Shown one piece after another: positions 22,377 through 50,655 of a stretch of DNA of 64,000 bases; position 1 is the first letter of the stretch, and the number at the start of each line of letters is the position of its first letter. The position numbers and the translations under genes were made by a program. A model generated the notes under the pieces. It saw only the letters and a list, made by a program, of their open reading frames with translations. It did no database searches and had not been told where the DNA came from. The stretch is from a virus, in IMG/VR virus record IMGVR_UViG_3300043395_003072, positions 64,001 to 128,000 of that record. One strand, written 5' to 3'.

Positions 22377-22879
22377 TTTTCAAACCTAAACCAAGTTTCA
22401 CCTGGTCCTTGTGATTTATTGTTCATAAAGTTTCTGATCGTACTCGTTGGATTTACATTGATTCCTCCAAAACCACTAGTTGAAATATACGTATTACAAA
22501 GTTCGTCCTGGTAATAGTTATTTACACCAATCCCTATCTCCAGTCTTGCATACATTATATCTTTTTTACTTGAGCTTTTAGAGTGGATTATACAATTCCT
22601 ACCAATGATATTCTCATCCACTCCATACACCATCCTAAGCATATCATAACTTTCTCTCCAATAAACTGCATTTACTTCTGCTAGTTCTTTAATCCCTACA
22701 ATAAAAAATATTCCGCTATAAAAAGACTCACTATAATATTTTGATTTAGGATTATGAGCTCCGCAAATATCTAAAACAACCCCACTATAAGACTCTTCTG
22801 TTTTCTGTTTTGATTGAATTAAAAAATCACTAGACTGTTGTTCTTTAGAAATAACAGATTTTCTTCCGAATCTTGCCAT
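22373..22879 (-). CDS. baseplate protein, possibly spike OB-fold domain
   Basis: 168-aa ORF directly after the hub (TAATG coupling). YSGVVLDI fits a gp5/gpV OB-like start. Confidence 0.4.
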   Translation of the reverse strand: MARFGRKSVISKEQQSSDFLIQSKQKTEESYSGVVLDICGAHNPKSKYYSESFYSGIFFIVGIKELAEVNAVYWRESYDMLRMVYGVDENIIGRNCIIHSKSSSKKDIMYARLEIGIGVNNYYQDELCNTYISTSGFGGINVNPTSTIRNFMNNKSQGPGETWFRFEK

Positions 22880-25800
22880 TATCTACCTACTCTTTCTGGA
22901 TTTAATTTATAATTTATTACACTCAAGTCAACTTCACTAGCTTGAACCGAATCTTCAATAATCCAATCTGGTATGTCTGCGAATACCGAAGACTTCCCAT
23001 AAGACTCGATTAAATGTTTATTTTCGTTATATCCTTTATATCCATCTGATAGAGCACTATATATATTACCAAGTACATTATTAAATCTTTCTGCTTCCGA
23101 GTGATTCTCAAACCCTCCAGCAAGCAAAGGCCTTCCATCTTTTACAAGCGGAAAAACCTTAATAATATTATTATTATCTACTTTTGAAAAAATTGTAGGT
23201 CTAAATATATTTTTACCAAGCCACCCAGATTGAAGGCTTTCTGAAAGAAAGTTTCTTATACTACTTGGCATTAAAGCCCCTGCAGATAACAATCCAGTTA
23301 AAGTTGCTCCAACTAAGAATGGGATTCTTCCAGTTAACCTTGTTGCTCCCATATAATTTATTCCGTTTGTTTTAAAGATTTGATAAATTGCAGCTTCTAA
23401 TCCTGTTATTCCAGCTGTAGTTGCTGCACCAACTCCTAAAGTTTTTCTAATTGGAGACTCTAATTCAACTGGTAACCTTGCATTCTCTCCAATCATGTCC
23501 TGCTGAAAGAATGGCTGATATCCATTTTTATTTTCAAAATACTGTATAAATTCTTTTGTTAACTGAGCTTTTACTTTATTAAGCACTTCTTTGTCTAAAA
23601 CATTTCCTCTTTGAAAGAAATCTATTCCTTGTAAATCTTCTCCTTCAAGCAAACTATCAAAGAAGTCATCAATCTTTTCACTAACAATCTCTGCAATTTT
23701 TTCATTACCTTCATTAACATAGTTAAAAGCTGCTCTACTATAAAAGCTTTCATAAAGCTCTTTTCTACTTTCAAAGAAAACTGTTTGATGTAACATTGGG
23801 TAGGTTAGAGTATCTGATACTGGAGCCACTATTGCTTCGACTTCTATATCAGTTACAAAACCAGTTTGATGACTAAACATATGTGTTACTGCTTTTACTC
23901 CTACCGGCCCGTACATAACGTTAACATTATCATTTAATATAATCGCATCGTTTGTATTTATTTTTGAATTACCAAGTACAAGCAAAGATCCTTCATACAT
24001 TTTCTTTGCACCATACAATAATCCTGCAGTAGCATATCTAGAAGCATTAGAAATACCTTTAATATTATCTGTCTTCAAAACATGATCTCTTAAACTCTCT
24101 GGAGGAATGTTACTATTTGCTACCGCTTTCCAAACTGAAGTACCGTCTACTTCTGAAACATCGTTACTGTTAGACATTAATGAATAGTGCACCGTGATTG
24201 AATTGTTTACATTGTGTCCGCTTACGATAATATTGTTTGCTATTAGATTTGTTCCTGAATTTACTAGATGGTACTGCCTAAATGGTACAAATCTATCTTT
24301 CGTTTTTTTCAACCAATCTTTCAAAGCAAAATCAGTAAAGTATTTTCTTTTATCTATAAACTTTGATAAGATATTATTTTTCTTATTTAAGATTGTCCAG
24401 TTAAAACTCTCTATTGGAAATAACAAGTTTATATCTTCTTCTGAAAGCAATTCATTTTGATTTAATTTTGATATTTTTTTATAAATATTATTTAAGCGAT
24501 AAATATTATAATTACTCATATCATTTCTGAAATACCTTTGACCTGGTAATCCAAAGAACACTCTATACTCCATAGTTTTCCCATATGGCCTAACGCCATA
24601 AACATATCCTGGGTGCCTTAGACTCATTTCGTGTAGCACTTCCCAAAAGGTTTGGGATGTTACAACATATTCATTTTCGAATCTACTTGTGTCTAAACGC
24701 TCATCAATGAACCCTCTACTTTTTCTAATAGCATCATTTATCAACGAGCTAGATGAGTCTCCTTGCAAATCAATAAACATTCCTGGAATTCCCATAAAGG
24801 AATTCGAAACTAAATTACTTTGTGAATAATAGTATTTTTTAAATGCTGTTATTAATCCAGAGTTATTTTCGTTATTTCTTTTAAGGTAACTTTCTGGCCT
24901 TGGACACCAGAGGTTATCATCTTGTGGTGATATCAATATTTTTCTAGTATAAGGTCTTTGGCTCTCATTAAAGAATGAGAGTAAACTATTGTATAGATTT
25001 ACTAAAGTATCAGTAGCTAATAAAGGTATTCCTATAGCAGTAGATATGAGTACATTTTTACCTGCGAATCTTGCCGCTGGCCAAAACCAACTATTAATAA
25101 AATTAGAAAACCTTTGAAGTCTAGTTAAACTCGTAGCGCTTGCAGTTACTACATCCGCTCCTAAAGCTGCAAAAGCTCTAGAACCCCCCCAGCCAAAAGT
25201 TGCAGTCAAGAAACCAAGTTCTTCTCTAATGACTGTTTGTACTACTGAATTTATTTGAGGTTCAGTTAAGGCACTAACACGTCTTCCACTCCTTGCTATT
25301 ACATCTGCAACTTTTTTAGTTAGATTTGCGCTAAGACTAATTCCATTTATAGTAAGCGTACTTCCTACACTTCCTGTTACTGTAGTAAGCCCACTTTTAG
25401 CTAAATCATCAGCTAATTTAACTAAATCATCTATCTCACTTTGAACTAATCTAGTACCTCCCCAATTATTCATTCTTTGCCATAAAGGTTTTATGGTCAT
25501 ATTAAAAGCTTTACTTGTAACACTACCAACATTGCCTACTATTGGACCAAAGATTTTTGTAGCTCCACCAAGGCTAGTCAATTTACTGCTAACAGCATTT
25601 ATTCCACTTCCTACTTTTCCAATTATTGCTGTTTTGCCTAAAGCATCCTTTAATATTTTTAAAGGTCTAGCTCCAATCGAAAGTATTACTCCACCAATTA
25701 AAATCAATCCTGAGTTATCTACAATCCAGTCATTCCAACTATTAAACCAGTTAAAAGACCATCCCCCTGACCTTGTATAAGTTTCCATATCTATGGATGG

Positions 25801-28593
25801 TATTTTAGATTCAAAGGTTTGAAATAGTTTTCCAGTCTTTACTCTACCAAAATGTTTGAGTTGAGGACTTAAGAGTAATGTTCCTAGAAGTTGATGCGTA
25901 GAATAAAACTTATTATTAATTTCGGCTTTGCTTGAAGTTCCATACTTTAACGATTCAAGCTCAATTCCATAACTTTGAACTACAATATTGCACAGCATAT
26001 TATCACCGGAATAAGATATTTCTGTAACAACTCCAGAAATTAAAACATCTAAATCGTTAGTATTACTGGCATATCCTGCTCTTAGTTGAACATTTACTCC
26101 CTTCCTTAAAACTACGCTTTCAATAGTAGGTAACACTTCTTCTGCATTTTGATTTACATTTCCAATATCAATGTCTCTAAGCATCCCCTTCCTTGTACCA
26201 TCTAATAGTCCAGATATATTTTGTAATTGTATACTTGCTGTACTTGTCGCTAACTCTCTATCACTATGCACATTGAATGAGATAACTGAGTTGTAATAAA
26301 AAAAGTCATCAAATGCTAAAAGTCTATCACTGTAAATTGCATCTTCTTCTACTAAATAGAGTCTAAAAGTAGGAAATGCTTTTTTCATTCCTTCTGATTC
26401 TTTTAAAGACAGGAAAGAATCTTCGCACAAATCAAAGAATTTTTCATCATTTACAGCTGATGATTCTTCTTCAAAGTAAGATAACGCCTCTTGATTTTCA
26501 TAAGCAAACTTACTTCCAAAGTTGCTTCTTAATTTTATTAAAGCTTCTTTTTGATTTTTAATTTGAGTTTCATAGTGAGCCTTTAGCTCACTTATATAAT
26601 TCTCAACTTCATTTTCTGGTACTGAATTTAAAGTCTTATTATCTACCAATAATGATAGTTTTGCATTGTTTCCATCTGTTGAATTAGGATCGTTATTGTC
26701 AATTTTTATTTCTGCATCTCTATTATCATATGATAAGTTTCCAAAATTAAACAAAATACCAGAATCAAAAATAGATACTGCTTTTTCTTCTGATTTAGAA
26801 ATCACTCCTTTATCTTTTATATTTTTTATAAAATCTAAAGATTTCGTTAAGATTTTATTTCCTCTAGATCTTTCATTTTCATTCATCTCGGAAAGATAGT
26901 TGTTTATTTTAAAGTAGTAAAAATCTATTGGAAGTCTATTTGCACTGTCTTTGAAGCGTGCAATTACTGGATCTTTAGGAGTTATAATATCAGGGTAAGC
27001 ACTGTCTTCTAATAAACTAAAGACATCTTGTTCTCCAAGCATCCTTGCTAATGCTGGATCTGTTTCTGCAATAGTATCAAAATTATTAACGGCTACTTCT
27101 TCTAAAAGACTGTCTAGTAGCGTCTTTAAATAAGCAATTGTTTTTCTATTTTGCTCTTTTAGTCTTTCTTTATTTTTACTAAAATATCCTTGTTGTAGAG
27201 CTGTAGATGCTTCATATCTATTGTTTTCTAGTTGATAGTCAAAAAGGTATCTTCCTGTACCGACTTTTTCTCCTGACTGATAATAACCTTCTTCGCCAAG
27301 TGAAGCATATATATCATTAGAAGTTACCGTTCCATTTACATTTATACTAAATACATCTACAGCATCTTCTTCATCTGCACCAAATTCGCTTAAACTTGGA
27401 AAATTTAAAATAAAGTTCAAGAAGCTAGAAATCTCAGCTCCAATAACTTCATTAGAAAATATATTTAAAGTTTTTTTATCTGCTTCTCTTTCTGATTGGG
27501 TATTTTTACTTCTTAGTAGTTCACTTACTCTTGCTCCCACCTTTATATCTGAAGCTAAACTTTCTAAAAGTTTAAAAGAACTACTTTGCATATAAACTTC
27601 TTCTACAAAATATTCTATCGCTTTATCTATTTCATCTGAAGTTCCTACTGATTCAAAGTAATTTTCATAATTAAAATCTTTATTAGTATTATATCTTAAT
27701 ATATCTTTGAAATAATTAGCATCCATCCCTTCTAAAGACAAGCCTACCCCGCCTCGCATTATTCTTTCCAAATTTCTATTACTACTTCTATCTTCAGTTA
27801 AATCAAACAAAAATCCATCAAAATTTGTTCCAGCAACTCCAAACGCTAAAATACCTAAAGCTATCCAGCCAATCGGATTTGTTGCTGCAAAAGTTATGGC
27901 TGCTACAGCTCCAGCTGTTAAAATATAACTTCCTAAAGCAACTTCTGTCGCAGTCGTAATGTATCTAAATATTAATGATTCATCTTTATATATTAAAGCG
28001 GTCAAATAGTTATAAAACGATGGCACTATTTTAAATTCATTACCAAAAGTTTTTTTAATAAAATCTAGTTCTGCATTTACTTCATTTTGATTTTCACAAT
28101 AAACCTTTGGTTCAATAATTAATATTGATGCTAAAAAAGCAAAATCTTCAATAGCTTTAATACTAATGTTGGTAGCTGCTTTTACAAAATTTTGTTCAAT
28201 CACTTCTATCTTTGGTACTAAGATACTATAAGAACTTTCTCCACCTAATGCATTACTCCCAATAGTTGAAACTTTATACTGCCTTCCAAGCTCTAGTCTT
28301 ATTGCTTCTATTTTTTCTGCGCTGTCGTAAGTAAAAGCATTCATGCTAGTTTGCATCATTACAAATTCAAACTCATCATTAACTTCAGTATATTGCTTAG
28401 ATACGTTACGTTGCTGCTCTTCAGTTAAATCTTTAAATTTAACAGTTTTAAATGATAAGTTATTATCTTTTATTTTTCTTACATTTTCTTCACTAAAAAA
28501 ATTATTAGGAGAAAAATTAACTTTTGAACTATTGCTTATTTCTCCGTCTCTAGTCTCGTTTGCATCATTTTCATCTAGTTCAAAATCTGCCAT
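22879..28593 (-). CDS. large baseplate hub protein (T4 gp27-like core) with hydrophobic insertions
   Basis: STASIQLQN, GVNVQLRAGY, LISGVVTEI, IVVQSYG, TFWEVL and YEGSLLVLGN...VTHMFS..GFVTDI are hub-type motifs. True start is probably MADFEL at 28593 (AGAGGAG SD, TAATG coupling); track start 28629. Confidence 0.7.
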   Translation of the reverse strand: MADFELDENDANETRDGEISNSSKVNFSPNNFFSEENVRKIKDNNLSFKTVKFKDLTEEQQRNVSKQYTEVNDEFEFVMMQTSMNAFTYDSAEKIEAIRLELGRQYKVSTIGSNALGGESSYSILVPKIEVIEQNFVKAATNISIKAIEDFAFLASILIIEPKVYCENQNEVNAELDFIKKTFGNEFKIVPSFYNYLTALIYKDESLIFRYITTATEVALGSYILTAGAVAAITFAATNPIGWIALGILAFGVAGTNFDGFLFDLTEDRSSNRNLERIMRGGVGLSLEGMDANYFKDILRYNTNKDFNYENYFESVGTSDEIDKAIEYFVEEVYMQSSSFKLLESLASDIKVGARVSELLRSKNTQSEREADKKTLNIFSNEVIGAEISSFLNFILNFPSLSEFGADEEDAVDVFSINVNGTVTSNDIYASLGEEGYYQSGEKVGTGRYLFDYQLENNRYEASTALQQGYFSKNKERLKEQNRKTIAYLKTLLDSLLEEVAVNNFDTIAETDPALARMLGEQDVFSLLEDSAYPDIITPKDPVIARFKDSANRLPIDFYYFKINNYLSEMNENERSRGNKILTKSLDFIKNIKDKGVISKSEEKAVSIFDSGILFNFGNLSYDNRDAEIKIDNNDPNSTDGNNAKLSLLVDNKTLNSVPENEVENYISELKAHYETQIKNQKEALIKLRSNFGSKFAYENQEALSYFEEESSAVNDEKFFDLCEDSFLSLKESEGMKKAFPTFRLYLVEEDAIYSDRLLAFDDFFYYNSVISFNVHSDRELATSTASIQLQNISGLLDGTRKGMLRDIDIGNVNQNAEEVLPTIESVVLRKGVNVQLRAGYASNTNDLDVLISGVVTEISYSGDNMLCNIVVQSYGIELESLKYGTSSKAEINNKFYSTHQLLGTLLLSPQLKHFGRVKTGKLFQTFESKIPSIDMETYTRSGGWSFNWFNSWNDWIVDNSGLILIGGVILSIGARPLKILKDALGKTAIIGKVGSGINAVSSKLTSLGGATKIFGPIVGNVGSVTSKAFNMTIKPLWQRMNNWGGTRLVQSEIDDLVKLADDLAKSGLTTVTGSVGSTLTINGISLSANLTKKVADVIARSGRRVSALTEPQINSVVQTVIREELGFLTATFGWGGSRAFAALGADVVTASATSLTRLQRFSNFINSWFWPAARFAGKNVLISTAIGIPLLATDTLVNLYNSLLSFFNESQRPYTRKILISPQDDNLWCPRPESYLKRNNENNSGLITAFKKYYYSQSNLVSNSFMGIPGMFIDLQGDSSSSLINDAIRKSRGFIDERLDTSRFENEYVVTSQTFWEVLHEMSLRHPGYVYGVRPYGKTMEYRVFFGLPGQRYFRNDMSNYNIYRLNNIYKKISKLNQNELLSEEDINLLFPIESFNWTILNKKNNILSKFIDKRKYFTDFALKDWLKKTKDRFVPFRQYHLVNSGTNLIANNIIVSGHNVNNSITVHYSLMSNSNDVSEVDGTSVWKAVANSNIPPESLRDHVLKTDNIKGISNASRYATAGLLYGAKKMYEGSLLVLGNSKINTNDAIILNDNVNVMYGPVGVKAVTHMFSHQTGFVTDIEVEAIVAPVSDTLTYPMLHQTVFFESRKELYESFYSRAAFNYVNEGNEKIAEIVSEKIDDFFDSLLEGEDLQGIDFFQRGNVLDKEVLNKVKAQLTKEFIQYFENKNGYQPFFQQDMIGENARLPVELESPIRKTLGVGAATTAGITGLEAAIYQIFKTNGINYMGATRLTGRIPFLVGATLTGLLSAGALMPSSIRNFLSESLQSGWLGKNIFRPTIFSKVDNNNIIKVFPLVKDGRPLLAGGFENHSEAERFNNVLGNIYSALSDGYKGYNENKHLIESYGKSSVFADIPDWIIEDSVQASEVDLSVINYKLNPERVGR

Positions 28594-31500
28594 TATGATC
28601 TCCTCTTGAAATAACCTTGTTGACTCCAAACAAAATCTTTAACTTCATCAAAGTATTTATGCTTTTCCATAGCTTCTTTCAATGTATACATTTTTAACAT
28701 TTCATTCAATGCTGTAGTTTCGTTTACCACAAGACCATCATGTATCTCATAGTGCCACCATTCAGTTCCCTTAAAATTACCTTTAGTTAAATAATCATCA
28801 ATTGGTGGAATTCGTACAAAACCTTGATCTTCTAGAATCTTTGTAAGATTAAAAGCTTCTCCTGTCCACTGATATGTACTTTGGTTTTGAAGAGTCTTTA
28901 CTAGACTTACAGTAAAAGTTTGATTTGTTATTAATCCTGTTTCATTTAGTGCCGCATTATATACTGCTTGATCAAAATCAGGTCTAGTTTTAACTATTGG
29001 ACACCATACCGTATAAAGAGATTTTTCATTATTTGGATTGTCTCTTATTACTAAATACACTGTGTCTTCATTTTCATTTATGTTTCCATAAAGACCGCTA
29101 TAAGCTCCAAGATCAATAGCTCTTCCAATATTGTGCATCCCTAATCTGGGCTTATCTATTGTTGATAAGTCTCTTCTTCCTCCACCAGAAGTTAATACTC
29201 CACCAAGCGCTATTATCTTATTATAAGCATTCATATATTTATCTTCAAATTCACTGCTAATACTATTCCGATTATAAGAAACTCCACCATTTTTAATCCC
29301 GAATGCTGGTACTTGCGACCAAGTGAATATTTTTTCTGGTCTAGTACTAGGTATATTTGTTTTTGAATTGTTTATAGCCTCTAAAACTTTTGCTCTTATT
29401 TCATTTTTAATTTGTTCTATTCTTGTTTTCCAGAAATGCCCAACGCTATCTTCTATAAACCTATCGTCTCCACTTTTTCCAACCCATCTTCTTCTTCCAT
29501 ATTTAAACTCTTCAAAAGAGTAAGTCCCTAAAATGCTTTTAGTACCAGCGCTATGATCTTTATTTAGCTTCGCGTTAAGATCTATATGAACAAATCCGTT
29601 ACTACCGGAACCATCCATTACCCTGTTTTCGTTATAGCTATTCTCTCCATATATTCCTAAACCAAATAAACCTAATCCACTATTAAGCAACATTTTAGGA
29701 TTTTTAAGATAGTTTTCTTCCATTAAAATTTCTATAATTCCACAAAGCTCCATAGCGTTTAAGCCATTTACTCTAATGTCTGCCGCTGAGCCATGATAAT
29801 GATTTGAAACAGTATCTCTAATTCCTGTATCTGAACTATCAAAAGTAGAACCTAAAGTTATCTTTAATGGTTTATTAATAAAATTATAATATGGACTATA
29901 ATTATTTAATAAATCTTGAAGAACATCTAAGCAAAGGCAAAGTTGGTATGCGTTGAAGTCTTGATTTAAATCGCTTTCTTCTTCAGTATTAATATAATTT
30001 ACAAGATTAGTTTTAATTTTTGTATTTTTAGAATACCAAAGCTGGCTATTGTAGTATTTTGTTTTCCAATTCAAGAACACATAGCCCTTACTGCCATTAT
30101 TTAAAGCTTCTACGGCTACAGGTTTGCCTTGATTGTCTTTTACGGTTGCTTCGGGATTATTAATCTTAATAATGTTATTTGATTTTAAATTCGAAAGTAT
30201 CTTTCTTTGAAAATCAGACCCAATCTTATTTGAAGCTACTGGTCTTAAATTTTCTTCTCTATAAGATTTACTTTCTCCAAACCTAAAATTTAAACCTGTA
30301 GTATTCGGAGAGCCTTCAATAGTGAAGGTATCTAATGAAGAAATACTAAAGTTTGGTTGAAAAATTCCTATAGTCTCCCCTTCTGCTTCAACAAGAAGTT
30401 TATTTGATTCTTTATAAGAACCAAGAAGTCTTGTAATGAAGCACTCTACCATAAAATTCCCAGCATCAGGTATCGCTGAAAAATTCTTTGCATAGTATTG
30501 AGAGTTAGCTCTTCCTTGTTCAAGAAAGCTTATAATATTTAAATCTACTGCAATATTATCTTTTGCTATGATATTGATCTGAAATTCAGGCTCAATAGAT
30601 CCTAAAAACTGATGTGTTGGGTATTCTTGTCCAAGGATTGGGATAGAACTAATTATATTTCTTAAACTACCTGATACTGCTGTTATTGCATGCCTAGTCG
30701 TTTTTAGATCTTCTTCTGCAATTCCGTATTGCAACATCTCCTCATTTAATATCTCCCTACCAATAATTGCTTCTAAATCTTCTTTACTAAAATCTAAATT
30801 CACTTCACTTATAACTTTTTCTAAAACATTTTCTAGACCTTCAACCCCACTGTATATACTAAAGTTATCATCTATATATTTTTTTAATTCTTTAAAATCA
30901 TTTGCATAAGTTGTTTTTGTTTTCTCTATTCTTGAACTCGAAGTATTAACACCTCGTATATAATAATCTACAATTTCTTTTGATGTAGTGATTGAGCTTT
31001 CTTCTTGATCAATGAAGCCAATTAAAGTTCCTTTTTTTATATTTGCTCTTGCCCATCCATTTTTAACACGCTCAAAAGCACGCAAGTTAAATACTCTATC
31101 CAAGATATTCATTGGGCAGTACATACCTTCAACTTTAAACTCAACATCATTCTTAAACTTTGCTACAAAAAGATTTTCGTCCCAAACTAAAATCTTACCA
31201 TCTTCAGGACAAAATAAAGGAAATATTGCATATCTATCTGAACCTAATTTTCTTTTATTACCAACTATCAAGTTGGTATCACTTGCACGCTTATAGTAAG
31301 GAGTATCTGTTATTGGGTAATAGGTATATTTATTTGCTTCTGTTTCTGGAATAATTGGTATTTCAAAATTTCGCTCATTAGGTTTTAAACTTTCAAAAAC
31401 AACTTCTTTTGAACTGAACATCTCTGGTTTAATTTCTCCAGAAATGCCTTTTAACAAAATCTCAAAATTCTCTTTTCTTTTTGCTTGTTTCTTTTCTAAA

Positions 31501-47644: not shown

Positions 47645-48073
47645 TTATCTTACTCCATTTATTAAGTTTCTTCCAATAAAAGAATATTCCTCAAGAATTA
47701 CCTGCTCGCTTATTTGAATAGTTTGACCCATTGATACAAGAAAGCAACTTTGAATTATTCTGCTTTTTGATTTATCATTTCCAAATATTATACTTATATC
47801 AAATTTTGGCAATAAAAAATTGCTATTAGCACTATTGTCACCACCTAAAAGATTAATTATATAGTTTGGCTCAGTATAGTTGATTACAAAATTTCCTTGA
47901 ATTATTTCTCTTCCAGGAAGCATAGCGTCAAAACTAGTCGAGCCATAACCATATATTGGTTGCTGACTATTCTGAAGAGAATAAGATATACCCGCGCACT
48001 CTATCAATTTATTATTATTGACTTCTATATAAGTATTGGCACCTGAAAAATATTGATAGTTGCTAAAATTCAT
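47645..48073 (-). CDS. tail tube paralog (tube initiator / baseplate-proximal ring)
   Basis: YFSGAN...GISYSLQNSQQPIYGYGS...GREIIQGNFVI...ILEEYSFIGR aligns by eye with the tube protein. Confidence 0.75.
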   Translation of the reverse strand: MNFSNYQYFSGANTYIEVNNNKLIECAGISYSLQNSQQPIYGYGSTSFDAMLPGREIIQGNFVINYTEPNYIINLLGGDNSANSNFLLPKFDISIIFGNDKSKSRIIQSCFLVSMGQTIQISEQVILEEYSFIGRNLINGVR

Positions 48074-49623
48074 TTACTTTCTCCAAATAAGTAATCTGTT
48101 AAACCACGGCGTTTTCCAACATTTATCTCTTCTTCAACGTTTCCAACATTTATTCTTTCTACAATATTTTCTGCTCCACTTGATATTGTGTACGCTTCTT
48201 TTATTGTTTCTTCAGTGTCTGTTTTTGACGCCCTAAACATTGCTACATCTTCCGCTACAAACTGAATTACAACTTCCGTTACCATGTCGTTTACCGAAGT
48301 AACAATACTTTCTCCAGTTATCTCAATACCCTTAATGATCATAGAAGCTCCACCGAAGTTATTTTCTTTCTCGTTATAAACTTCTGTTTGATATCTTAAC
48401 ATCAAATTAAATTTGCTTATCAAACTGCTTAGTTTTGAAGTACCAAAAAAAGATGTGTTAATTTTTCCTGTCAAACTCCCTCTTCCTTTTTCTTGATCTA
48501 ATGAATAGTAATAGTAATTCAAATCAATATTTGACGGATCTTTTGCTATTAAACTTCTTAATGGATGATCTTCAATAATTAAAAATACCATAGTTCCAGC
48601 AATAGTTCTTATTGCTTTTGTAAAGCCTGAAACCCCTACATGCCCAAGTCTTCTAACTGGAGCCTTTGCATCATGTATTGATACTGAGATTGTTGCTAAA
48701 GAACTTAAGCGCACAGGACTATTTAACCATTTAAATAAAATTTCGTCTTTATAACTCTCGTCAACTATATCACTTTTTATCAATTTTTCTTCTTTTATTT
48801 CTTTCATTTCCATAAATTTTCCATACTGTGTTTTATAAACTTTAAGTTTATAATCGTAAACTTTAATGTCACTATCATACTTTTCTTTATCTATTTTATA
48901 TTTTTCTAAATTAGCTAAATGGTTAGCTAGTAATATATTATATGCTATAACCTCTGCATCATAAAGAAGTTGCATGTCTAGATTGTAAACGAGTATTAAA
49001 TCATTTGCACTTTCAAAAAGAAAAGATCGAATATCACCTTCTAGTAAACTCTTACTTTGATCAACAAAATCTTTTCCTTCTGGACCTAAAGATTCTCGAG
49101 CTGCTATTAATAAATTCAAAAATTGATCTATAATGTTTACATAATCATTTAACTCAGTATCATCTGCCAACCCATCAACTTCACTAAAATATGTATTTTT
49201 TATATAATCTGGTTTAAAACTACTTAAAGTTAAACTAATTAAATCTTCTATTTGTTCTTTTTGTGCCTGGCTAAGACTTCCATCATTATTAGGATCAGAG
49301 GGTAAATTTAATATTTCATCTATTTTATTTAAAATAGTATTAGATATATTATTTAACTCATCATTATTAGGGAGGTAATTTAATGCTTTTAAAACCGGTG
49401 GATCTTTTCCTAACTCCCCTGGATCTAAAGGTTCTGTTGGTGGCGCTGGCTTTATAGGCTCTTCCATGTTAGGATATCTTTTTTCATATCTTGTTACAGT
49501 TTCAAAATATTCAATAGTTTTAGTTTTTTTTCTTTTACTCGCTTCTTCGTATATCTTGTCTGTACCTTCAAACCAAGCATACGCTTTGCAGTCAGCTCCT
49601 GAGTATGAATAAGTATATGTCAT
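48070..49623 (-). CDS. tail tube paralog with ~285-aa insertion
   Basis: SYSGADC at the N-terminus and TISVSIHDAKAPVRRLG...RTIAGTMVF...SVNDMVTEVVIQFVAED align with the tube. AGGAGG SD. Confidence 0.75.
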   Translation of the reverse strand: MTYTYSYSGADCKAYAWFEGTDKIYEEASKRKKTKTIEYFETVTRYEKRYPNMEEPIKPAPPTEPLDPGELGKDPPVLKALNYLPNNDELNNISNTILNKIDEILNLPSDPNNDGSLSQAQKEQIEDLISLTLSSFKPDYIKNTYFSEVDGLADDTELNDYVNIIDQFLNLLIAARESLGPEGKDFVDQSKSLLEGDIRSFLFESANDLILVYNLDMQLLYDAEVIAYNILLANHLANLEKYKIDKEKYDSDIKVYDYKLKVYKTQYGKFMEMKEIKEEKLIKSDIVDESYKDEILFKWLNSPVRLSSLATISVSIHDAKAPVRRLGHVGVSGFTKAIRTIAGTMVFLIIEDHPLRSLIAKDPSNIDLNYYYYSLDQEKGRGSLTGKINTSFFGTSKLSSLISKFNLMLRYQTEVYNEKENNFGGASMIIKGIEITGESIVTSVNDMVTEVVIQFVAEDVAMFRASKTDTEETIKEAYTISSGAENIVERINVGNVEEEINVGKRRGLTDYLFGESK

Positions 49624-49640: not shown

Positions 49641-49663
49641 GAAAAAGGGGCTTACGCCCCTTC
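49641..49663 (-). terminator. intrinsic terminator after tail tube gene
   Basis: Minus strand AAGGGGC-GTAA-GCCCCTT followed by more Ts: GC stem, GNRA loop, U-tract. Confidence 0.85.
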
Positions 49664-49695
49664 AATTACATTTTATATTTTATATAACTTATTAA

Positions 49696-50655
49696 TCAAA
49701 TTCTTTGACGAACCCAATCAACCGCCCCATCGATAGCAATGCTTGCGGCATCAATTGCACTGTCTACGCGTCCGCCTATAGTTTGTTGAGCAGAGCTCGG
49801 TTGTGTTTCTACTTGTGCTTGCTGAACTTCAGAGTAGCCACTAGCGCCCTTTAAACCACTTCCATTTCTATTGCTACTACCATTATTCCAATTATAAAGC
49901 TGTTCACGTGCTGAATGGCCACCAATTTGCATATCAAAAGTTCTCCAAGGAAGAATTGTGCGGCACACATAAGTCATTTGGTTTTCAATTACGATATCAT
50001 CAATCGAGAAACCAGAACCCTCATTAAGAATCTCACAACCATATAAACGCATTTGAGCCGATTGGCCATATTCATTAACTGCAAGAATTGTTATATCAAA
50101 AGGAAGTATTTGATCTACATAAAATACAGGGGCAATAGCATAGTTATTACCAACCTGGTTAACATCATATGTTCCTCCAACTTGTAATCTCTGATACGCT
50201 CCGCTTGCAGTTGCACCACTTTCTCCAATTTTACCCTCGTTATTATTTAAAGTAGATCCAAACTGAGCGCCTCCAACATTTACTAATGCTACTGAAGTGT
50301 CGGTCTCGTTGTTAACATTTCCAAGTGCTTTTGTATCAGCTGCTCTATCTTTTCCATTTCCAACTTGAGCAAACACTTCATCCTTGTCTCCCAGGTATTT
50401 CTCTCCAGTAAATACTGGAGACATTAAGATGTGAGTATCAAGCATTAGTGAAATCATAGTACCAGCAATACCACGCTTACCGCGAGAGTAAGAGATTGGA
50501 TCTACTGAGCCCATGACGTAGATAGGAGCTTTCTCACGCTGAATAGCATAAGACAAAGCTTGCATTGATCCAGCTTGCTTGCCGTTGATAATTACACGAA
50601 TATCAACGCCAGAATAAGATGTATAAGTTCTAGAAAGATCTAGTGAAGTTGCCAT
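49696..50655 (-). CDS. major tail tube protein
   Basis: Directly follows the sheath. TSYSGVDI...QALSYAIQREKAPIYVMGSVDPISYSRGKRGIAGTMI...GCEILNEGSGFSIDDIVIENQMTYVCR. Followed by a terminator. Confidence 0.85.
   Translation of the reverse strand: MATSLDLSRTYTSYSGVDIRVIINGKQAGSMQALSYAIQREKAPIYVMGSVDPISYSRGKRGIAGTMISLMLDTHILMSPVFTGEKYLGDKDEVFAQVGNGKDRAADTKALGNVNNETDTSVALVNVGGAQFGSTLNNNEGKIGESGATASGAYQRLQVGGTYDVNQVGNNYAIAPVFYVDQILPFDITILAVNEYGQSAQMRLYGCEILNEGSGFSIDDIVIENQMTYVCRTILPWRTFDMQIGGHSAREQLYNWNNGSSNRNGSGLKGASGYSEVQQAQVETQPSSAQQTIGGRVDSAIDAASIAIDGAVDWVRQRI

What the first reader, a model, noticed from the sequence alone, without database searches (positions are those of the whole stretch)
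48718..49569. Antigen I/II-like alpha-helix/polyproline stalk inserted into a tail-tube paralog
Seen: after the first tube strand (SYSGADCKAYAWF) come a beta-like segment (33-50), a PxxP run (PIKPAPPTEPLDP..DPP, 51-76), a ~130-aa helical domain, then a helix with aromatic residues exactly every 7 (Y221, Y228, H235, Y242, Y249, Y256, Y263, F270), before the tube fold resumes near residue 303. Established: streptococcal antigen I/II adhesins build a rigid stalk from a Tyr-heptad alpha-helix wound with a PxxP polyproline-II strand, with a domain at the tip. Inference: the same design in reverse order, projecting a helical domain from a tube-fold ring near the baseplate. I do not know this architecture from phage tails.
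Basis: partly seen in the sequence, partly recalled or inferred. Interest (0 to 1): 0.7.

Follow-up and report, generated by a model that had tools for sequence, protein, structure and literature searches.

The report
Adhesin-style stalk on phage tail-tube paralog
A spare copy of the tail-tube protein in a large freshwater phage carries an inserted arm whose sequence copies the rigid helix-plus-polyproline stalk of streptococcal adhesins and holds a fast-changing helical domain at its tip; this would be a way of displaying a variable part on the virus tail that I did not find described in the papers I could search.

Summary
Gene 48070-49623(-) is a 517-aa tail-tube paralog of a 158-kb freshwater myophage related to Bacillus phage 0305phi8-36. 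It carries a 280-aa insert after the first tube strand: five PxxP-spaced prolines (56-68), a four-helix bundle (80-213) and eight aromatics at exact 7-spacing (221-270). Both runs are the longest in the genome and beyond chance. Searched blind against PDB sequences, the helix ranks antigen I/II proteins, GbpC and the PPa miniprotein at or near the top, though E-values are weak (0.02-3). Relatives with shorter Pro runs have fewer Tyr heptads, fitting an antiparallel register. AlphaFold gives matching arm lengths, but I could not read contacts, so packing is inferred (about 75%). The beta-like segment is unsupported. The insert is confined to one clade; its tip is swapped (134-280 aa), near-neutral (dN/dS 0.6-0.9 versus 0.04 for the core), and one relative has deleted tip and helix in frame. 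It is probably a dispensable display arm on a low-copy, likely baseplate-end ring. It is not an antigen I/II member. The scan noted the tandem tube paralogs before in other genomes, not this stalk.

The parts
48070..49623 (-). Tail-tube paralog 'tube2', 517 aa (slot of 0305phi8-36 gp141)
49564..49623 (-). Residues 1-20: N-terminal tube motif and first strand, identical in all eight clade members
49477..49563 (-). Residues 21-49: proximal outgoing arm; helix or beta strand unresolved
   Evidence: low pLDDT
49387..49476 (-). Residues 50-79: proline-rich outgoing arm (P51, P56, P59, P62, P65, P68, P75, P76), inferred polyproline-II strand, about 9 nm
48985..49386 (-). Residues 80-213: acidic four-helix-bundle tip (net charge -17), swapped and fast-evolving among relatives, no specific structural homolog
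48769..48984 (-). Residues 214-285: long return helix; aromatic heptad run 221-270 at 48814-48963 with the antigen I/II-like Y-x-x-D-L-x-K spacing
48718..48768 (-). Residues 286-302: linker helix back into the tube fold
48229..48717 (-). Residues 303-465: tube-fold core under strong purifying selection (dN/dS 0.03-0.05 in most pairs)
48070..48228 (-). Residues 466-517: variable C-terminal tail, low confidence
49642..49664 (-). GC-rich hairpin between the major tube gene and tube2, also present in relatives; possible terminator that lowers tube2 output (not called by the terminator scan)
49696..50655 (-). Major tail tube (gp140 homolog), 319 aa
50685..53228 (-). Tail sheath, 847 aa
   Evidence: phrog_16991, E 1.5e-12
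47645..48073 (-). Third tube-family paralog, 142 aa, without insert

Best explanation
The protein is a minor tube-fold subunit of a contractile tail (fold and gene slot shown; ring formation follows from the fold family). Its first beta-turn, an insertion hot spot in this family, carries an out-and-back arm (shown by topology). The outgoing Pro run forms a polyproline-II strand that zips antiparallel onto the Tyr-heptad return helix, one proline step per heptad, as in antigen I/II and the PPa miniprotein (inferred, about 75%). Predicted register: M53-F270, P56-Y263, P59-Y256, P62-Y249, P65-Y242, P68-H235, L71-Y228, P75-Y221. This gives a thin, stiff, single-chain stalk of about 7-8 nm, 11-13 nm with the base, holding a four-helix bundle away from the ring. 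An arm of that size cannot lie under the sheath, so the ring most likely sits at a tube end, probably as a baseplate-side initiator ring (inferred, about 55%; neck end about 15%). Six arms would then be carried with the tube tip to the host envelope. The tip is an exchangeable accessory contact or decoy surface under relaxed or diversifying selection, not an essential part (role inferred, about 40%; dispensability suggested by a natural in-frame deletion).
For: Tube fold and slot: (the gp141 tube paralog is a virion protein by mass spectrometry). Non-random Pro and aromatic runs, each the longest in the genome. Helix profile vs 177,635 PDB sequences: PPaTyr 5lo2 first (E 0.024), AgI/II 3iox second (E 0.063), 6e36 (antigen I/II) and 6tzl (surface adhesin with the same helix) also among 10 hits. 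The single helix 225-272 ranks 6e36, 3iox, 6tzl first and GbpC fifth, with tropomyosin at ranks 4, 6, 7; 14 of 34 positions are identical to 3iox without gaps. A charged Tyr-containing control helix from sister protein P0037 finds none of them. Counts co-vary: 8 aromatic heptads with a Pro run spanning about 25 residues in P0001/P0002, against 3 heptads with a PxxP run of 8-11 residues in P0003-P0007. The invariant residues of both arms (P56, P59; Y256, L260, Y263) fall in the predicted register. The full AF2 model gives an extended 50-86 segment at pLDDT 70-79 and one helix 204-285; both bundle termini lie at the same end, and arm lengths match. Low-copy signs: GC3 0.10-0.22 against 0.50 for the capsid and 0.34 for the sheath; hairpin after the major tube gene. 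Variability: flanking terminator, sheath and chaperone proteins 93-100% identical, inserts of different types 31-49%; tip dN/dS 0.6-0.94 in most pairs. Tube-homologous initiator rings at the baseplate are the rule in myophages (bioRxiv 10.64898/2026.04.21.720040), and the initiator travels with the tube tip through the wall (PMC13433997).
Against: No atom-level contact was read from any model. In the insert-only model residues 51-69 have pLDDT below 50 (3-sequence alignment). The AgI/II matches are individually non-significant or marginal; the P0006 helix alone does not retrieve them, and the Pro run retrieves nothing relevant. The co-variation rests on two lineages only. P0008 keeps the Pro run but lacks tip and helix in four contigs. 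A 4-3 hydrophobic pattern near 103 degrees also fits a coiled coil. Position in the virion and host are untested.
Confidence: 0.62

Rival explanations
1. The Tyr helix is a coiled-coil strand: helices from two or three neighbouring subunits of the ring bundle together, and the Pro run is only a stiff, unpaired linker leading out to the tip.
For: Hydrophobic moment peaks near 102-104 degrees. Tropomyosin and plectin are among the weak hits. Distant relatives carry plain helical hairpins at the same turn (e.g. P0043-P0058, P0062). P0008 keeps the Pro run without the helix.
Against: The position three after each Tyr is mostly polar (D, E, N, K, Q), which leaves a thin stripe for a coiled-coil core but matches the AgI/II helix. 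AgI/II-family chains outrank tropomyosin. Pro count tracks Tyr count.
Confidence: 0.15
2. The stalk is real, but the tip has no binding job. The insert is tolerated cargo or a spacer at a permissive surface turn, drifting nearly neutrally and lost without cost.
For: Tip dN/dS 0.94 between the two closest alleles and 0.6-0.7 in most other pairs; GC3 0.10. In-frame deletion in P0008. Sister proteins lack any insert. The turn accepts 0-400 aa of unrelated sequence.
Against: The frame stays open in all alleles seen, the hydrophobic core is kept, the stalk arms are under purifying selection in most pairs (dN/dS about 0.2-0.5) and one tip pair gives 0.25. An average near 1 can also mix purifying and diversifying sites. 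Two different haplotypes coexist in one sample.
Confidence: 0.25
3. The arm is delivered cargo rather than a surface display: the ring enters the cell envelope with the tube tip and the bundle acts in the periplasm or at the inner membrane, for example as a counter-defence or membrane-spacing part during ejection.
For: Initiator rings are driven through the wall with the tube (PMC13433997). The neighbouring paralog in relatives (P0121 family) has a similar Pro-strand/tip/Tyr-helix layout with a hydrophobic Gly-rich hairpin and two invariant Cys, which suggests membrane contact for that arm.
Against: This tip is acidic with no membrane-like segment (max KD19 0.85) and no catalytic fold match. 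The two inserts are not detectably homologous. The window's phage lacks the P0121 gene.
Confidence: 0.15

Closest known systems
Streptococcal antigen I/II adhesins (SpaP A3VP1, PDB 3iox/3ipk; also 6e36) and GbpC (5uqz)
   Same: Tyr-heptad helix and PxxP strand flanking a variable domain that would sit at the tip of a stalk (PMC7732690); the helix sequence pattern matches without gaps.
   Different: Order reversed (Pro strand first); tip is a small four-helix bundle; stalk about 8 nm instead of over 50 nm; base is a phage tube fold, not IgG-like domains with an LPXTG anchor; no Strep_SA_rep match. Convergence or capture of a short motif cannot be told apart.
PP-fold: avian pancreatic polypeptide and the designed PPa miniprotein (PDB 5lo2/5lo3)
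   Same: A polyproline-II strand N-terminal to the helix it buttresses, the same order as here (PMC8616854; PMC11904010); 5lo2 is the top PDB hit of the helix profile.
   Different: There a short loop joins the two elements over about three heptads; here a 134-aa domain joins them over up to eight.
Bacillus phage 0305phi8-36 gp141 tail tube paralog and relatives (WH1 gp100, KLEB27-3)
   Same: Same slot after sheath and major tube; tube-fold homology; gp141 is a virion protein by mass spectrometry.
   Different: gp141 has no insert after strand 1 and carries its extra sequence at the C-terminus.
Tube-initiator rings of myophages (T4 gp48/gp54, Goslar gp62/gp203, phage 812 gp113)
   Same: Low-copy tube-fold hexamers at the baseplate end, some with helical extensions.
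   Different: The 812 extension is a C-terminal handle that binds baseplate parts; here an internal, hypervariable, deletable arm. Position is not shown for this protein.

Membership tests
Antigen I/II adhesin family | Helix with Tyr heptad repeat | tested here: met
Antigen I/II adhesin family | PxxP-repeat proline-rich region | tested here: met
   (five-member chain, 56-68)
Antigen I/II adhesin family | Helix and PxxP strand intertwined, Tyr into Pro pockets | tested here: inconclusive
   full model supports an ordered extended strand (pLDDT 70-79), insert-only model does not; coordinates not available
Antigen I/II adhesin family | Domain order A - V - P | tested here: not met
   order is P - bundle - helix
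Antigen I/II adhesin family | Ala-rich A repeats (Pfam PF06696 Strep_SA_rep) | tested here: not met
   no match at E up to 10 in the genome or in Pfam scans of the insert
Antigen I/II adhesin family | Globular V domain with binding cleft; C-terminal IgG-like domains; LPXTG anchor | tested here: not met
   tip is an all-helical four-helix bundle and the base is a tube fold; no LPXTG or hydrophobic anchor in the sequence
Phage tail tube / Hcp-like fold | Tube beta-sandwich fold | tested here: met
   Foldseek E 2.7e-5 to phage 812 neck/tube chains, many tube hits; VIA Z 10.8, rmsd 3.4, 126 aligned to phiCD508 tail chain 9gb1_S
Phage tail tube / Hcp-like fold | Hexameric ring in the virion | not testable with these tools
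   hexamer exceeds the size cap; no virion data
0305phi8-36-type tube paralog (gp141 slot) | Gene directly after sheath and major tube, before tail chaperones; homology to gp141-type proteins | tested here: met
   (phrog_9206, phrog_34314)
Baseplate tube initiator | Located between hub and first tube ring | not testable with these tools
   inferred only from steric argument and precedent
PP-fold | PPII strand precedes the helix it packs on | tested here: met
   order shown; top hit 5lo2; packing itself inferred
PP-fold | Short loop, about 36-residue miniprotein | tested here: not met
   134-aa domain between the elements

The most novel reading that the evidence does not exclude
A clade of freshwater myophages uses an alpha-helix/polyproline-II hybrid stalk, so far known mainly from Gram-positive surface adhesins, as a modular display arm on tail-tube-fold rings. 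Stalk length and tip are exchanged among otherwise near-identical phages, so the tube-end ring, not only the fibres, carries a host-facing variable module; a neighbouring tube paralog may use a similar arm to carry a disulfide-clamped membrane hairpin.
Probability: 0.3. Interest if true: 0.75.

Novelty: new variant of a known kind. Interest (0 to 1): 0.52.

Why it matters
If the stalk is real it extends the helix/polyproline-II fibre from streptococcal adhesins and PP-fold peptides to a phage tail, in the reverse order, with natural length variants (3 against 8 heptads) that allow a direct test of the one-proline-step-per-heptad rule. It also marks the first turn of a tube-fold subunit as a site that takes 0-400 residues, and points to tube paralogs as an overlooked place for hypervariable, possibly host-facing modules in uncultured large myophages. 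The limits: both building blocks are known, the arm appears dispensable, and no ligand or host is known.

Tried and rejected
Complex prediction of helix 214-274 with Pro run 42-84: no answer (score 0.19, mark 0.32); not used as evidence either way. Pfam, PHROGs and PDB-sequence searches of the whole insert: nothing meaningful. ESM Atlas by features: no usable hit for this insert or the P0121 insert; by structure only TM below 0.5 by query; the atlas fold search returned tube clusters only. Foldseek and VIA on the insert: generic four-helix bundles (designed proteins, cytochrome b562 fusions, Z about 11, within the range expected for helical bundles), no family assigned; no AgI/II or PP-fold chain appeared in the listed rows, which does not exclude them. 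A profile of the insert against 1.84 billion representatives found only the three clusters already in hand; region-limited search found only itself, even missing P0002, so that search is weak. Origin of the insert by copying from the neighbouring P0121-type paralog: tested by hhalign, not supported (probability below 1%) despite a shared K-Y-P-N motif. Assembly artefact: rejected. Intein or homing element: nothing in the sequence or searches suggests it. Terminator scan did not call the intergenic hairpin. RNA contigs cover part of the helix region but cannot show transcription. Larson 2010 and Baker 2017 were not held; their content is taken from PMC7732690 and PMC8616854 or marked as memory. 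Literature searches for a PPII/helix stalk or hypervariable insert in a phage tube protein returned nothing relevant. A few long branches in the tree may come from poorly cut cores and were not interpreted.

Full report
Context. The window is positions 64,001-128,000 of a 158,462-base virus record rated complete, held by freshwater, wetland and aquatic runs. The finding lies inside ORF 48070-49623 on the minus strand, 517 aa. Upstream in reading order are a tail sheath (phrog_16991) and a 319-aa protein whose closest cultured relatives are the tail tubes of Bacillus phages KLEB27-3 and 0305phi8-36, Moorella phage MTATph1 and Acinetobacter phage ME3. Downstream are a 142-aa third tube-family protein and two genes in the slot of the tail chaperones. 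In 0305phi8-36 the gene after the tube, gp141, is annotated as a tail tube paralog found in virions by mass spectrometry. Our protein matches the same slot in KLEB27-3 and WH1 by tblastn, and its AlphaFold model matches tube proteins throughout. That it is a tube paralog is therefore shown. That it is in the virion follows from the gp141 precedent.

The observation. The eight aromatics at 7-spacing and the five-member PxxP chain are each the longest of their kind among 133 ORFs of the genome, and they occur in the same protein. Shuffles give 0 of 20,000 for the aromatic run, even when only the helix is shuffled, and 1 of 20,000 for the proline chain. An independent study holds the same insert with 33 differences, and a further allele at 88% identity exists. 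The one unsupported detail is the beta-like segment 33-50, which the models give as low-confidence helix or coil.

Anatomy. The full-length model (91 sequences, mean pLDDT 75.6, pTM 0.44) gives strand 12-17, helix 21-49, an extended segment 50-86 at pLDDT 70-79, helices 87-198 at about 90, one continuous helix 204-285, and the tube core from about 303. Structure search assigns residues about 79-213 to an up-down four-helix bundle with only generic matches. Such a bundle has both ends on one side, so the Pro run and the long helix must both run between bundle and tube domain. Lengths agree: 30 residues of polyproline II span about 93 A and residues 221-270 about 75 A; with the base each arm is 11-14 nm (textbook rises). 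I could not read coordinates, so contact between the arms is not shown. The insert-only model, from three sequences, leaves the Pro run below pLDDT 50.

Is the helix of the antigen I/II type? In antigen I/II, Tyr of heptad repeats interlock with pockets formed by PxxP motifs and lift the V domain from the cell (PMC7732690). I searched the helix blind against 177,635 PDB sequences. The eight-sequence profile returned the designed miniprotein PPaTyr first (E 0.024) and AgI/II 3iox second (E 0.063), with two more chains carrying the same helix among ten hits. The single helix ranked three such chains first and GbpC fifth, interleaved with tropomyosin; the ungapped match to 3iox has 14 of 34 identities. 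None of these E-values is strong alone, but the enrichment is marked, and a charged Tyr-containing control helix from a sister protein retrieved none. The helix of relative P0006 alone also retrieved none. The shared pattern goes beyond Tyr: Asp at i+3, Leu or Ile at i+4 and Lys at i+6 recur, and a three-heptad version of the motif occurs nowhere else in the genome but in all seven insert-bearing proteins. PPa has its polyproline strand N-terminal to the helix (PMC8616854), so the reversed order seen here is compatible with the same packing. That PPa was built from the S. mutans adhesin is from memory, and agrees with the near-identical helix segments in the alignments; it also means 5lo2 is not independent of 3iox.

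Relatives as a test of pairing. Seven full inserts are known. P0001 and P0002 have eight aromatic heptads and a Pro run spanning about 25 residues. P0003-P0007 have three Tyr heptads and two or three PxxP-spaced prolines. The invariant positions are P51-region residues, M53, E54, P56, P59 in one arm and Y256, L260, Y263 in the other, and these face each other in an antiparallel register of three residues per heptad. This is what a zipper predicts, but it rests on two lineages.

Evolution of the insert. The turn after strand 1 is a hot spot: homologs carry 0 to about 400 extra residues there, including helical hairpins and helix-plus-proline loops. The stalked insert is confined to one clade (99/95) whose sisters have none, and a profile search of 1.84 billion representatives found no other carrier. 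Within the clade the terminator, sheath and chaperone proteins are 93-100% identical, while inserts of different types are 31-49% identical, with tips of about 134, 150 and 280 aa. dN/dS is 0.00-0.09 in the tube core, mostly 0.2-0.5 in the stalk arms and 0.6-0.94 in the tip in five of six pairs (0.25 in the sixth). P0008, nested in the clade, has lost tip and helix in frame at a short TTA microhomology and is seen in four contigs. One sample holds both a window-like haplotype and one with 2,915 other bases in place of 1,238. The arm is thus exchangeable and apparently dispensable.

A parallel case next door. Most relatives have a fourth paralog between the major tube and this gene (P0121 family). 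Its central insert has a Pro-containing outgoing strand, a Gly-rich hydrophobic hairpin between two invariant Cys, and a Tyr-bearing return helix. It is absent from this genome and survives as a 111-base remnant in the closest relative. The two inserts share a K-Y-P-N motif but are not homologous by profile comparison, so I treat the likeness as a lead only.

How it most likely works. Shown: tube fold, insert site, bundle tip, the two periodic arms, hypervariability, natural deletion. Inferred: the arms zip into a helix/polyproline-II stalk (about 75%); the protein forms a low-copy ring, in line with low GC3 and a hairpin after the major tube gene (the terminator scan did not call it); the ring sits at a tube end because a 12-nm arm cannot lie under the sheath, most likely at the baseplate where tube-homologous initiators are usual; the acidic tip is an accessory contact or decoy surface (about 40%). 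Rivals are a coiled coil with a free Pro linker (15%), a real stalk with functionless cargo (25%) and cargo delivered into the envelope (15%); the last two share the stalk.

Comparison and verdict. It works like an antigen I/II or PP-fold stalk but is not a member of the antigen I/II family: order, A repeats, V domain, IgG-like domains and anchor all fail. It is a member of the tube-fold family in the gp141 slot. I found no report of this stalk in a phage tail in the papers I could search, which is a limited library. Earlier notes of this scan recorded the four tandem tube paralogs in other genomes and a P-globular-A order in an unrelated protein; none covers this stalk. Class: new variant of a known kind. 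Interest 0.52.

Noticed in passing
L001:6923-7990, L008:6914-7990, L011:4768-5997 (P0121 family; absent from the window): Extra tube paralog, a duplicate of the major tube, with a central insert holding a Gly-rich hydrophobic hairpin (KD19 2.0) between two invariant Cys, flanked by a Pro strand and a Tyr helix; conserved in about 25 proteins. Candidate membrane-inserting arm on a tube ring.
   Followed up: partly
L005:7899-7990: Remnant of the 3' end of the P0121-type gene between the major tube and tube2 in the closest relative; the window has no remnant. The lineage that lost this gene is the one with the longer stalk.
   Followed up: yes
L001:8001-9020 (P0008): In-frame deletion of about 349 codons removing tip and return helix at a TTA microhomology, leaving the Pro run; four contigs.
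   Followed up: yes
window 49696-49940: The C-terminal tail of the major tube is also hypervariable: DNA alignment to relatives stops near 49940 and the protein is only 70-73% identical while the sheath is 95-98%.
   Followed up: partly
window 49642-49664: GC-rich hairpin right after the major tube gene (z -2.65 for the spacer), present in L005 and L008 too; may attenuate the minor paralogs.
   Followed up: partly
P0043-P0058, P0062, P0063, P0090, P0092: Distant tube2 homologs carry 55-85-aa amphipathic helical hairpins at the same first turn; others (P0011, P0017, P0019, P0034) carry a helix followed by a Pro-rich return strand.
   Followed up: no
L014:3955-5709, L015:4048-5736, L017:4160-5731: Marine P0121-type paralogs end in long Asp-rich D-x-D-x-D-G repeats, possibly calcium-binding.
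   Followed up: no
window 50288-50325: An RNA-library contig (run X5) shows a cluster of nine G-to-A differences in the major tube gene (C-to-T on the coding strand); strain difference or deamination, no matching DNA run to tell.
   Followed up: no
window 22879-28629: 1916-aa protein after the hub-region genes has a long Gly/Ala-rich hydrophobic hairpin near residues 230-270, a second candidate membrane-engaging tail part.
   Followed up: no
L032 (GCA_046463975.1) and P0014/P0140: Contigs of this phage group are filed inside prokaryote bins, one labelled Candidatus Pacearchaeota; probably mis-binning, not a host assignment.
   Followed up: no
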